This document shows, piece by piece, positions 52,872 through 54,656 of a DNA stretch of 64,000 bases. The stretch covers positions 58,548-122,547 of the forward strand of contig JBAZUK010000005.1 in NCBI GenBank assembly GCA_041661445.1, given 5' to 3'. Position numbers and translations under genes: made by a program. The notes below the pieces were generated by a model. It searched no databases. It was not told where the DNA came from and worked only from the letters and a program-made list of their open reading frames with translations. Position 1 is the stretch's first letter; the number at the start of each line of letters is the position of its first letter. This DNA comes from Parachlamydiales bacterium. GTDB taxonomy: Bacteria > Chlamydiota > Chlamydiia > Chlamydiales > SM23-39.

Positions 52872-53702
52872 ATGGATAAAATAAATATTAAAAAGCTGCT
52901 TCCTAAAATAGATAAAAAAAGACATAAATATGAAACCGGATTTGTTGTTGGAGTTGCAGGATCAGCCGGAATGTGGGGAGCTGCAAAATTAGCTTCTTTG
53001 GCTGCCTATAGATCAGGTTGCGGAATTGTCAAAATTATAACAGAGAATGAAATTCCATCTCCTTTTTATGAGCTGGTCAATTTAGTTATAGATTATAATA
53101 ACCTTGAAGAAATCATTGAGACTTGTAATAAAGCTGATTCTATTTTTTTAGGTCCGGGTCTTGGGAGGGATAAGAAAATTGAAAAATTTCTTATTGAAAT
53201 GCTGCCTAAACTTAATAAAAAAACAATAATTGACGCTGATGGTCTATATCATCTGGCTAATAATCACTATACGCTTCTTTTTCGTGAGACAATTTTAACG
53301 CCGCACAAAAAAGAGATGCTCAGGCTTTTAAAAAAAGATAATCTGCCTGATGAAGAATTAATTATTAAAACCCAAAAGTTTTCCGAAGAAAAAAAAGTAA
53401 TGATTGTTTTAAAAGGTTATCCTACAATTATTTTTCATCCTGCCAAGGAACCTCTCACCATCTTTGGGGGAGATCCGGGGCTAGCAAGAGCTGGAACCGG
53501 AGATGTTCTAACAGGAATGATAGCATCATTTTCTTCTCAAAAAATGGATTTATATAACTCTGCTATTTTGGCAGTCTGTATGCATTTCAAGGCTGCCGAA
53601 TTGGCCTCTAATAAAAAAACATCCTACTCTATGCTCGCGACAGATGTTATTAAATGTCTGCCTGAAGCATTTAAATTTTATTTGGAAATGTCTTCGCATT
53701 AG
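52872..53702 (+). CDS. nnrD: ADP-dependent NAD(P)H-hydrate dehydratase (YjeF C-terminal family)
   Basis: RHKYETGFVVGVAGSAGMWGAAKLA and GGDPGLARAGTGDVLTGMIAS motifs. ATG at 52872; the track start at 52842 is a TTG. Confidence 0.85.
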   Translation: MDKINIKKLLPKIDKKRHKYETGFVVGVAGSAGMWGAAKLASLAAYRSGCGIVKIITENEIPSPFYELVNLVIDYNNLEEIIETCNKADSIFLGPGLGRDKKIEKFLIEMLPKLNKKTIIDADGLYHLANNHYTLLFRETILTPHKKEMLRLLKKDNLPDEELIIKTQKFSEEKKVMIVLKGYPTIIFHPAKEPLTIFGGDPGLARAGTGDVLTGMIASFSSQKMDLYNSAILAVCMHFKAAELASNKKTSYSMLATDVIKCLPEAFKFYLEMSSH

Positions 53703-53875
53703 TTTTTCATTAATTTTACTCTAAAGCTAAATCAACAAAATATTCTAATCAAAATTTATAGCGTTTTTTCTATTTTAATGAATTATAAATACGAGACACA
53801 TAAAACATATTTTAATTGCTTTTTTTGATGATTTTATTAAGAATTTGTGAAAAAAAAGTTAAAAGGAGTAAAAAA

Positions 53876-54265
53876 ATGTCATCTATAGCTTGCCCAGCAC
53901 CAGAAAGAAAACCATACCAAGCACCTATTATAGCAAGTGTAAGTCTATCAATTGCAATTGGTTATTTAGGAACTAGAATCTTTACAAATATAAATCCAAT
54001 AGCAGGGGCTATATTTGTTGGAACTTATCCAATTTTGGATATTTTAACTTCAAGAATTAATAACTATTTCACTAAATTTTTACATTCAATCGATACCGGT
54101 TTTTTAAAAGCAGTTTTAGACGGAACTTGTGCATTTTTTATAACAAATCAATTCATGAAAATTACAATAATGGAAGGCGTTAAATTGATAGCCGTGGCAT
54201 ATATTACTGCAATTGGATTGATAGCAGGTCTTAGGTTGTCTCTTCGTTTTTTTAACAGAAGCTAA
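53876..54265 (+). CDS. small four-helix membrane protein (Inc-like candidate), cargo between nnrD 3' repeats
   Basis: ATG at 53876 follows AAGGAG by 8 nt (the track start at 53816 is a TTG). 129 aa with four hydrophobic segments: IIASVSLSIAIGYLG, IAGAIFVGTYPILDIL, AVLDGTCAFFIT and LIAVAYITAIGLIAGL. Confidence 0.65.
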   Translation: MSSIACPAPERKPYQAPIIASVSLSIAIGYLGTRIFTNINPIAGAIFVGTYPILDILTSRINNYFTKFLHSIDTGFLKAVLDGTCAFFITNQFMKITIMEGVKLIAVAYITAIGLIAGLRLSLRFFNRS

Positions 54266-54300
54266 TAGATGAATTAAGACACGTTTTTATAATTGATATA

Positions 54301-54579
54301 AAGGTTATCCTAGATTTTTCATCCTGTAAGAACCTCTGATCATTTTTGGGGGGAGATCCTGAGATTGCAAGAGCTGGAACCGGAGAGGTTCTAACAGAAA
54401 TGATAAAATCATTATCTTCCCAAAAAATGAATTTATATAACTTTGCTGTTTTGGCTGTCTGTATGCATTTCAAGGCTGCCGAATTGGCCGCAAATAAAAA
54501 AACATCCTACTCTATGCTCGCGACCGATGTTATTAAATGTCTGCCTGAAGCATTTAAATTTTATTTAGAAATGTCTTAA
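54301..54579 (+). pseudogene. duplicated 3' fragment of nnrD (non-functional remnant)
   Basis: Aligns to 53413-53702. The last ~130 nt are near-identical. The first ~150 nt are diverged, with indels and an in-frame taa (cctgtaagaacc). The track ORF 54346-54579 is the residual open part; there is no 5' half of the gene. Confidence 0.85.
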
Positions 54580-54656
54580 CGTGGCTTTTCATTAATCATA
54601 TGAGATGGCAGTTAAACTAATCCTCAGCTTAAAAAATTAACTTTTTGATTTACGAT

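What the first reader, a model, noticed from the sequence alone, without database searches (positions are those of the whole stretch)
53413..54625. 3' end of nnrD is repeated after a ~600-bp insert carrying one small membrane-protein gene
The last ~290 nt of nnrD plus ~40 nt downstream (53413-53745) recur at 54301-54625 in the same orientation. The interval between them holds only a strongly Shine-Dalgarno-led gene for a 129-aa four-helix membrane protein (53876-54265). Divergence between the two copies is uneven. The 3'-most ~130 nt are nearly identical, with a handful of mismatches. The 5' ~150 nt have indels and an in-frame stop. Repeat-cargo-repeat at a gene's 3' end is what Campbell-type or site-specific integration of a small circle carrying a surrogate 3' end would leave. 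It could also come from a duplication followed by decay. The identity gradient suggests ongoing gene conversion or selection on the terminal segment. Together with the psd/nth locus, this is the second time in 64 kb that a putative host-interaction gene sits between duplicated 3' ends of housekeeping genes.
Basis: partly seen in the sequence, partly recalled or inferred. Interest (0 to 1): 0.65.

Follow-up and report, generated by a model that had tools for sequence, protein, structure and literature searches.

The report
Dead nnrD tail copy beside inserted gene
In an uncultured groundwater chlamydia, a small membrane-protein gene sits just after the repair-enzyme gene nnrD, followed by a dead second copy of nnrD's last 290 bases; this looks like a recombination scar at a gene-insertion hot spot, not a new mobile element.

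Summary
The repeat is real. Window 53412-53714 (the last 291 nt of nnrD plus 12 nt) recurs at 54300-54596 with 88% identity (blastn E 1e-98). The same arrangement appears in a second assembly and in independent contigs from two groundwater metagenomes, so it is not an assembly artefact.

The downstream copy is a pseudogene fragment. It has three indels, a stop at 54327-54329 and derived changes at invariant NnrD residues (GTGDVLTG to GTGEVLTE).

The cargo, ORF129 (53876-54265), is a real gene. It belongs to an Anoxychlamydiales-only family of four-helix membrane proteins that in other genomes forms tandem arrays between ruvX and tsaD, never beside nnrD.

In eight related loci the gap between nnrD and the next conserved gene (an epimerase) holds anything from nothing to four unrelated genes. 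None has an nnrD fragment.

Identity rises from 73% through 87% to 97% towards the 3' end (2 of 5000 permutations match this). No conserved RNA or synonymous-site constraint explains it, so later gene conversion fits best.

There is no recombinase and no att-like core. The in-service copy looks native, not foreign.

Best reading: a scar of duplicative or one-sided (illegitimate) recombination at an accessory-gene hot spot. A second case (nth / LRR gene / nth') lies 10 kb away. Modest interest.

The parts
52872..53702 (+). nnrD, ADP-dependent NAD(P)H-hydrate dehydratase, 276 aa. It encodes only the NnrD half; an in-frame TTG at 52842 is an alternative start.
   Evidence: Pfam Carb_kinase PF01256, E 2e-51. 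59-75% identical to Anoxychlamydiales Nnr proteins. All invariant residues are kept.
53412..53714 (+). Repeat copy A: the last 291 nt of nnrD including its stop, plus 12 nt downstream. This is the copy in service.
   Evidence: blastn against copy B: 88.2%, E 1e-98. It carries the relatives' state at 13 of 19 differing sites.
53574..53694 (+). High-identity block of copy A: 97% identical to 54457-54577, with 4 mismatches in 121 nt. Probable gene-conversion tract.
   Evidence: Sliding identity and permutation test, 2 of 5000. No excess synonymous-site conservation here among relatives.
53715..54299 (+). Cargo segment of 585 nt between the repeats: an AT-rich leader plus ORF129. It resembles neither the 5' part of nnrD nor anything else in the window.
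   Evidence: Smith-Waterman score 22 against a shuffle mean of 26; only chance-level blastn hits in the window.
53863..53868 (+). Shine-Dalgarno sequence AAGGAG, 7 nt before the ORF129 ATG.
   Evidence: Read directly from the sequence.
53876..54265 (+). ORF129: a 129-aa four-helix membrane protein, member of an Anoxychlamydiales-restricted family with the motif GYLxxRIFTxINPxxGAIF.
   Evidence: 15 homologues by full HMMER, the best at 46% identity and E 2e-26. Profile hits are all named Candidatus Anoxychlamydiales hypothetical proteins. AlphaFold gives helices 18-36, 41-65, 71-93 and 98-128, pLDDT 79. Hydropathy profile, and chance of an open frame this long 9e-6. No Pfam, NCBIfam or PDB match.
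54300..54596 (+). Repeat copy B: pseudogene fragment of the nnrD 3' end (nnrD'). Indels of -4, -2 and +1 nt, and a stop at 54327-54329. A residual 77-codon ORF lies at 54346-54579.
   Evidence: Alignment A1. Pfam Carb_kinase positions 178-241 of 242, E 1e-8. Derived changes at invariant residues, GTGDVLTG to GTGEVLTE. 14 nonsynonymous against 5 synonymous codon differences.
54657..55493 (-). TPR-repeat protein gene, convergent with nnrD', lineage-specific. Its stop lies 60 nt from the end of copy B.
   Evidence: Pfam TPR_1 and TPR_2. Absent from the nnrD loci of six relatives.
55919..57631 (-). SulP-family transporter gene (Sulfate_transp + STAS), also absent from the relatives' loci.
   Evidence: Precomputed Pfam hits; tblastn against relatives' loci.
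57832..58782 (-). NAD-dependent epimerase gene: the conserved right flank of the variable gap. It abuts nnrD directly in two relatives.
   Evidence: 62-69% identical to its counterparts in L003, L005, L006 and L014. Gene maps.
41648..41745 (-). nth': a fragment copying the last ~95 nt of nth plus 3 nt, 81% identical to 43687-43784. This is the second locus of the same design: nth (43690-44319, minus strand), LRR gene (42158-43498, plus strand), nth', then the AAA_14/DUF4143 ATPase gene (40327-41553).
   Evidence: the repeat finder family D2. tblastn of Nth residues 181-207, 70% identity, E 1e-6. Alignment A3. Pfam hits.

Best explanation
This is a recombination scar at an accessory-gene hot spot, not a self-mobile element.

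In Anoxychlamydiales the block gpsA-nnrD and the epimerase/polysaccharide-export block are conserved. The gap between them holds different genes in every genome. In the window's lineage a dispersed member of a clade-specific small membrane-protein family (ORF129) came to lie directly after nnrD. The event left a second copy of the last ~290 nt of nnrD plus 12 nt, at the seam between ORF129 and the older cargo (TPR and SulP genes).

Two routes give exactly this anatomy, and I cannot separate them:
(a) One-sided homologous plus illegitimate recombination (homology-facilitated illegitimate recombination) between two near-identical strains, one with nnrD-ORF129 and one with nnrD-TPR-SulP.
(b) An intragenomic duplicative insertion, such as a replication template switch that returned about 300 nt upstream of where it left.

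Shown:
- The upstream copy stays the working end of nnrD.
- The downstream copy is a decaying pseudogene.
- Divergence along the repeat is significantly uneven.

Inferred:
- The 121-nt, 97% block comes from later RecA-type gene conversion from the live copy into the dead one.
- ORF129 is expressed from its own Shine-Dalgarno site as an inner-membrane or inclusion-membrane hairpin protein.
For: - The repeat is real and reproduced in independent assemblies and samples.
- The nnrD-to-epimerase gap is hypervariable. It is empty in L003/L007 and in the contig of P0004 (5-33 nt). It holds GNAT + DUF4143 ATPase genes in L014, four other genes in L006, and OMP + BNR genes plus a DUF4143 fragment in L005. 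L002 has a photolyase gene after nnrD. The window has ORF129 + nnrD' + TPR + SulP.
- No relative has an nnrD fragment, and TPR, SulP and ORF129 are absent from their nnrD loci.
- The ORF129 family normally sits in ruvX-tsaD arrays, so this copy is dispersed.
- Copy B is dead. It has indels, a stop and derived changes at invariant residues, with a near-neutral ratio of 14 nonsynonymous to 5 synonymous codon differences. 13 of 19 differences are derived on the B lineage, so both copies began nearly identical.
- The divergence gradient is significant. It is not explained by synonymous-site conservation among relatives, a known RNA family, a terminator-like site or a stable RNA fold.
- The fragment sits in the middle of the variable region, at a seam between two cargo sets. 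The same holds at the nth locus: LRR gene | nth' | ATPase gene.
Against: - Neither proposed parental arrangement (nnrD-ORF129-epimerase or nnrD-TPR-SulP-epimerase) was found in any database, so the order of events is inferred.
- The closest available relative has only 75% NnrD identity, so there is no true empty-site allele of the same species.
- Gene conversion is inferred from the pattern alone. A lineage-specific function of the 3' block in copy B cannot be excluded without RNA data.
- Two such fragments in 64 kb, against none in about 93 kb of relatives' loci, hints at something lineage-specific that generic recombination does not explain.
Confidence: 0.6

Rival explanations
1. Campbell-type homologous integration of a small circle. 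An ~885-bp circle carrying one nnrD 3' segment plus ORF129 looped out by recombination between the same repeats in a sister strain, then recombined with the chromosomal nnrD. That would duplicate the homologous segment on both sides of the cargo.
For: - Full-length direct repeats flank a single-gene cargo.
- The two copies started almost identical, as expected for a conspecific donor.
- The 121-nt, 97% block is long enough for RecA to loop the cargo out again.
Against: - It only moves the question back one step, because the first repeat-flanked copy still needs another origin.
- No joint or circle junction appears in the contigs of two runs, although contigs drop rare forms.
- No other genome carries ORF129 next to nnrD.
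Confidence: 0.17
2. Tandem duplication of the whole nnrD gene. The repeat spacing of 883-888 nt is close to the 831-nt gene plus a short spacer. The 5' two thirds of the second copy were later overwritten by, or decayed into, the ORF129 segment.
For: - The spacing is close to the gene length.
- Identity falls steadily towards the 5' side (97, 87, 73, then about 60% for 53385-53411) rather than ending at a sharp junction.
Against: - The spacer has no residual similarity to the nnrD 5' part at DNA or protein level; the score is below shuffled controls.
- ORF129 has homologues at another locus in other genomes, so it did not arise from nnrD debris.
- It needs an extra replacement event of matching length.
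Confidence: 0.1
3. Site-specific integration of a decayed integrative element that targets the 3' end of nnrD and carries a surrogate gene end. This is the pattern of islands in tRNA genes or at protein-gene 3' ends. The repeats would then be attL and attR.
For: The topology gene / cargo / displaced 3' end is the one such elements leave. The same topology occurs twice in 64 kb.
Against: - No integrase or any recombinase lies between or beside the repeats.
- The cargo is 585 nt with one membrane-protein gene.
- There is no identical core. Identity is lowest at the 5' edge, where the crossover core should be.
- Copy A is ancestral-like, not foreign.
- Family members elsewhere lie in tandem arrays without host-gene fragments.
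Confidence: 0.05
4. The 3' block of copy B is kept by selection, not by conversion. It could act as a 3' UTR or terminator for ORF129 or for the convergent TPR gene, or its 77-codon ORF could make a peptide.
For: - The conserved block lies next to the TPR gene end.
- A 77-codon ORF (54346-54579) is still open.
Against: - No terminator-like site, no Rfam match and no fold more stable than shuffles on either strand (z +0.63 and -0.34).
- No synonymous-site constraint in that part of nnrD among relatives.
- The ORF has a TTG start with no Shine-Dalgarno sequence, has lost the catalytic-motif residues, and differs from nnrD at a near-neutral ratio.
Confidence: 0.06
5. Assembly artefact: a collapsed or expanded repeat, or a chimera between strains.
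For: The source is a metagenome-assembled genome. A low-depth variant of nnrD, about 86% identical, exists in run X1.
Against: - The structure is identical in two assemblies.
- Logan contigs from two different studies and years cross both cargo junctions with no mismatch, at depth equal to the flanks.
- The copies differ enough (12%) to be told apart.
Confidence: 0.02

Closest known systems
Gene hybrids in fungal mitochondria: inserted C-terminus + mobile ORF + displaced native C*-terminus (Allomyces macrogynus atp6; Glomus sp. atp6, atp9, cox2, nad3; PMC3630166)
   Same: The topology is identical: an intact gene ending in one copy of its 3' end, then an inserted ORF, then a second unexpressed or dead copy of the 3' end. 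It also recurs at several genes in one genome.
   Different: - In fungi the cargo is a LAGLIDADG or GIY-YIG homing endonuclease that drives the event. Here it is a membrane protein with no nuclease domain.
- In fungi the in-service C-terminus is foreign (64-81% to the native one) and the displaced copy matches relatives. Here the in-service copy is the ancestral-like one, and the displaced copy carries the derived changes.
attL/attR partial duplications left by integrative elements that target the 3' ends of tRNA, tmRNA or protein genes (for example ICESt1/ICESt3 in fda); named from my own knowledge, not from a tool result
   Same: Direct repeats made of the target gene's 3' end flank the inserted DNA, and the gene stays intact.
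   Different: There is no integrase, no short identical core and a 585-nt cargo. The repeats are about 300 nt long with identity lowest at the 5' edge.
Homology-facilitated illegitimate recombination (additive integration with one homologous anchor, described for naturally transformable bacteria such as Acinetobacter and Streptococcus pneumoniae); named from my own knowledge
   Same: It predicts a partial copy of the anchor-side gene at the seam between incoming and resident DNA, with no mobile-element genes. It fits a hot spot bounded by conserved flanks.
   Different: It is not demonstrated here. The donor arrangement was not found, and DNA uptake or exchange in Anoxychlamydiales is untested.
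Chlamydial Inc (inclusion membrane) proteins (PMC3048545)
   Same: ORF129 is phylum-restricted and small. It has two predicted helical hairpins (18-36/41-65 and 71-93/98-128) with loops of 4 residues, one of them the Asn/Pro-rich NINP. That matches the bilobal hydrophobic domain criterion of two helices with a loop under 30 residues.
   Different: There is no sequence similarity to any named Inc. Type III secretion and inclusion-membrane localisation are untested. The same paper notes that many proteins with this profile stay in the bacterium.

Membership tests
NnrD / Carb_kinase (PF01256), for the intact gene and the fragment | A profile match over the whole domain above Pfam's gathering score | tested here: met
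   The intact gene scores 175 bits over positions 4-241 of 242. Copy B's ORF scores 35 bits over positions 178-241 only, so it is a C-terminal fragment.
NnrD / Carb_kinase (PF01256), for the intact gene and the fragment | Conserved GxGDxLxG nucleotide/substrate motif intact | tested here: met
   Copy A has GTGDVLTG, as do all 8 relatives. Copy B has GTGEVLTE, so it fails this feature and is a pseudogene.
Integrase-mediated island or prophage at a gene's 3' end | A tyrosine or serine recombinase gene inside or next to the element | tested here: not met
   The ORFs from nnrD to the epimerase gene are ORF129, TPR and SulP. None has a recombinase domain.
Integrase-mediated island or prophage at a gene's 3' end | A short identical att core at the crossover edge of both repeats | tested here: not met
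   The 5' edge is the most diverged part (73% with indels). The identical stretches lie in the 3' interior.
Integrase-mediated island or prophage at a gene's 3' end | The in-service 3' end is element-borne, meaning foreign relative to the host lineage | tested here: not met
   Copy A carries the relatives' state at 13 of 19 differing sites, copy B at 2.
Campbell-type (homologous) integration of a circle | Full-length direct repeats of the homologous segment on both sides of the cargo | tested here: met
   Repeats of 303 and 297 nt flank the 585-nt cargo.
Campbell-type (homologous) integration of a circle | A circular or excised form, or an empty allele, detectable in the population | tested here: inconclusive
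   No joints appear in the contigs of runs X1 and X2. Only contigs are held, not raw reads, and contigs drop rare variants.
Gene conversion between dispersed repeats | Significant clustering of identity within the repeat that shared constraint does not explain | tested here: met
   2 of 5000 permutations reach the observed block. No synonymous-site conservation, RNA family or stable fold accounts for it.
Homing-endonuclease mobile ORF with C-terminal duplication (fungal mitochondrial type) | The cargo encodes a LAGLIDADG, GIY-YIG or HNH endonuclease | tested here: not met
   ORF129 has no Pfam or NCBIfam domain and no PDB fold match. It is a four-helix membrane protein.
Chlamydial Inc proteins | [quoted passage not shown] | tested here: met
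   The AlphaFold helices and hydropathy profile give hairpins 18-36/41-65 and 71-93/98-128. No dedicated topology predictor was available.
Chlamydial Inc proteins | Type III secretion signal and localisation to the inclusion membrane | not testable with these tools
   This needs a secretion reporter assay and microscopy in an infected host.

The most novel reading that the evidence does not exclude
Chlamydiae largely lack classical mobile elements. In this lineage, accessory (possibly host-interaction) genes may move as recombinase-free cassettes. A gene flanked by two copies of a housekeeping gene's 3' end could loop out by RecA recombination. It could then re-enter the same conserved gene in co-infecting strains by homologous recombination. 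The nnrD and nth loci would be two such cassettes caught in place.
Probability: 0.1. Interest if true: 0.6.

Novelty: new member of a known kind. Interest (0 to 1): 0.27.

Why it matters
The finding is a clean, dated example of how an obligate intracellular lineage without obvious mobile elements adds accessory genes. Insertions land at a few hot spots bounded by conserved housekeeping genes, and the seam is marked by a dead copy of the flank gene's tail.

Such gene-tail fragments could be used as markers to map additive recombination events in chlamydial metagenome-assembled genomes.

The work also defines a previously unnamed Anoxychlamydiales family of small four-helix membrane proteins. 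These are reasonable candidates for inclusion-membrane proteins.

None of this changes current understanding. The interest is local to chlamydial genome evolution.

Tried and rejected
- **Decayed whole-gene tandem duplicate.** Smith-Waterman and tblastn of the spacer against the nnrD 5' part scored below shuffled controls. Rejected.
- **De novo origin of ORF129.** The word-indexed protein search found only the protein itself, which suggested an orphan. The exhaustive HMMER search then found 15 relatives. Rejected.
- **Conserved RNA or regulatory element in the 97% block.** There is no Rfam hit above noise; the only match is a spurious MALAT1 at E 0.24. There is no terminator-like site, no stable fold and no synonymous-site conservation among relatives.
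- **Fold-based function for ORF129.** No PDB match has E below 0.98. NCBIfam gave only noise.
- **First scan of genome contigs with the single NnrD protein.** It found nothing. The profile scans of genome and metagenome contigs gave only two more close loci, L014 and L015.
- **Context of the best ORF129 homologue, P0122.** It sits on a 1-kb contig next to a class-II aminoacyl-tRNA synthetase gene, and no DNA was held.
- **Other gene-fragment duplicates.** The window has only nnrD' and nth'. About 93 kb of relatives' loci have none.
- **DUF4143 ATPase genes as one recently mobile element.** The copies are only 22-42% identical to each other. Not supported.
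Full report
**Observation**

The window has nnrD at 52872-53702. It matches Pfam Carb_kinase with E 2e-51. The last 291 nt of the gene plus 12 nt downstream (53412-53714) recur in the same orientation at 54300-54596. 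blastn gives 88.2% identity over 304 columns and E 1e-98. The gapless core, 53463-53694 against 54346-54577, is 92% identical.

Past TTTTCATTAAT, 12 nt after the stop, the similarity is at background level.

Between the copies lie 585 nt (53715-54299). These hold one ORF, 53876-54265, with AAGGAG 7 nt before its ATG.

**Not an artefact**

- A separate NCBI assembly (GCA_041665865.1, contig JBAYIA010000002.1) is 99.99% identical over 20,125 nt, including the whole structure.
- In groundwater run X1 (2022) an 833-nt contig runs from 53654 to 54486 with no mismatch. It goes from the end of copy A through the cargo into copy B, at the same depth as the flanks.
- In run X2 (2018, another study) a 4.5-kb contig runs from 54007 through copy B into the TPR gene with no mismatch.
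- No contig shows a joint. Only contigs are held for these runs, so rare deleted or circular forms cannot be excluded.

**The organism and the locus**

The closest NnrD proteins (59-75% identity) come from metagenomes, and sources name them Candidatus Anoxychlamydiales. I fetched eight related loci.

The left flank (GT9/UDPGP, gpsA, nnrD) and the right flank (an epimerase on the minus strand, then a polysaccharide-export gene) are conserved. The gap between nnrD and the epimerase differs in every genome:

| Locus | Content after nnrD |
|---|---|
| contig of P0004 | nothing (5 nt) |
| L003/L007 | nothing (33 nt) |
| L014 | GNAT gene and a DUF4143 ATPase gene |
| L006 | four unrelated genes |
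| L005 | an OMP gene, a BNR gene and a DUF4143 fragment |
| L002 | a photolyase gene |
| window | ORF129, nnrD', a TPR gene and a SulP transporter gene (4.1 kb) |

None of the relatives has an nnrD fragment, and none has TPR, SulP or ORF129 at this place. The site is a hot spot of gene-content change, and the duplication is specific to the window's lineage.

**The second copy is dead**

Aligned with copy A, it has a 4-nt deletion, a 2-nt deletion and a 1-nt insertion in its first 55 nt. A stop follows at 54327-54329. In the part that is still in frame, 14 codons differ nonsynonymously and 5 synonymously.

Several changes hit residues invariant in all eight relatives, including GTGDVLTG to GTGEVLTE. 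At 13 of the 19 differing nucleotides copy A has the state commoner in relatives, and copy B at only 2. Almost all change is therefore on the copy-B lineage. The two copies began nearly identical, and neither looks imported from a distant donor.

**The gradient**

| Segment of copy A | Identity to copy B |
|---|---|
| 53410-53483 | 73% |
| 53484-53573 | about 87% |
| 53574-53694 | 97% |

Six changes then cluster at the stop codon. Only 2 of 5000 permutations give a block this extreme.

A pseudogene should decay evenly, so either the 3' block was refreshed or it is constrained. I looked for constraint and found none:

- no excess third-position conservation in that part of nnrD among seven genomes;
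- no Rfam family;
- no terminator-like site;
- no fold more stable than shuffles on either strand.

The residual 77-codon ORF has a TTG start without a Shine-Dalgarno sequence and has lost the catalytic motif. Gene conversion from the live copy into the dead one is the simplest account. This is an inference from pattern.

**The cargo**

ORF129 first looked like an orphan. The exhaustive HMMER search then found 15 relatives, the best at 46% identity and E 2e-26. A profile search found 14 proteins, and those with source names are Anoxychlamydiales hypothetical proteins.

In three other genomes the family forms tandem arrays of two or three paralogues between ruvX and tsaD. Those arrays have no host-gene fragments around them. 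The best homologue sits on a 1-kb contig next to an aminoacyl-tRNA synthetase gene.

AlphaFold run with the family alignment gives four helices (18-36, 41-65, 71-93, 98-128) at pLDDT 79. No PDB fold match has E below about 1, and there is no Pfam or NCBIfam domain. GC3 is 0.18, against 0.23-0.26 for the neighbouring genes.

The two short-loop hairpins satisfy the in-silico criterion for chlamydial Inc proteins (PMC3048545). Secretion and localisation are untested, so 'host-interaction gene' stays a guess.

**Origin**

- **Site-specific integration is disfavoured.** There is no recombinase and no identical core at the crossover edge. The in-service gene end is not foreign.
- **A decayed whole-gene tandem duplicate is disfavoured.** The spacer has no residual similarity to the nnrD 5' part, and ORF129 has its own family elsewhere.
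- **Duplicative or one-sided recombination fits all facts.** One route is homology-facilitated illegitimate recombination between two near-identical strains carrying different cargo after nnrD. The other is an intragenomic template switch that re-entered nnrD about 300 nt upstream. Either puts a partial copy of the flank gene exactly at the seam between new and old cargo.
- **Campbell-type integration of an 885-bp circle** from a sister strain gives the same picture and cannot be excluded. It still needs a first event of the other kind.

**A second case**

The all-against-all search of the window found only one other gene fragment. The last ~95 nt of nth plus 3 nt (43687-43784) recur at 41648-41745 with 81% identity and no gradient.

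The layout is nth, then an LRR-protein gene, then nth', then an AAA_14/DUF4143 ATPase gene. In relative L006 the psd-nth gap holds only one small unrelated ORF. Again the fragment sits at a seam inside a variable gap between convergent genes.

About 93 kb of relatives' loci hold no such fragment. The window's genome may therefore be unusually prone to this kind of event, but the sample is small.

**Comparison with known systems**

The closest formal analogue is the fungal mitochondrial 'gene hybrid': inserted C-terminus, mobile endonuclease ORF and displaced native C-terminus (PMC3630166). The topology is the same. There, however, the cargo is the nuclease that drives the event and the in-service end is foreign. 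Neither holds here.

The finding is best filed as a new example of a known kind of recombination scar with a pseudogene fragment, plus gene conversion between the copies.

**Verdict**

The finding is ordinary in kind and of modest interest for chlamydial genome evolution.

Noticed in passing
window 40327-41553; L007 7827-9032 and 16532-17833; L014 6483-7673; L005 9883-10146: Genes for AAA_14 + DUF4143 ATPases turn up repeatedly inside the variable gaps of these Anoxychlamydiales loci. In the window one lies right next to the nth' fragment. The copies are only 22-42% identical, so they are separate arrivals rather than one recently mobile element.
   Followed up: partly
window 52737-52871 compared with L014 4281-5825 and L015 4317-5822: The window's nnrD encodes only the dehydratase half (276 aa), with 135 nt after gpsA. 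Relatives L014 and L015 encode a 501-514-aa bifunctional Nnr with the YjeF_N epimerase domain in the same place. The NnrE half has therefore been lost in the window's lineage and in some others (L002, L003).
   Followed up: partly
window 41648-41745 and 43687-43784: The last ~95 nt of nth are duplicated 2 kb away at 81% identity, on the far side of an LRR-protein gene (42158-43498). This is the same gene / cargo / gene-tail design as the nnrD locus, but with even divergence and no gradient.
   Followed up: partly
window 46048-47418; L002 1-488; L007 1160-2473; L006 4549-4661: The mnmE-ruvA gap is also variable. It holds a 456-aa ORF without a clear domain in the window, a PPR/TPR-like ORF in L002 and L007, and nothing in L006.
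   Followed up: no
window 11167-13240: Three tandem paralogous ORFs (198, 151 and 271 aa), 33-43% identical to each other. Function not examined.
   Followed up: no
window 53327-53533, run X1: Run X1 also holds a 207-nt contig at about 2x depth that is about 86% identical to nnrD. A related strain coexists in that groundwater sample.
   Followed up: no
window 53695-53703 compared with 54578-54585: Six differences, including a 1-nt indel, are packed into 9 nt around the nnrD stop codon. Copy A reads ...EMSSH*, while copy B stops two codons earlier as ...EMS*. This may be one complex mutation.
   Followed up: no
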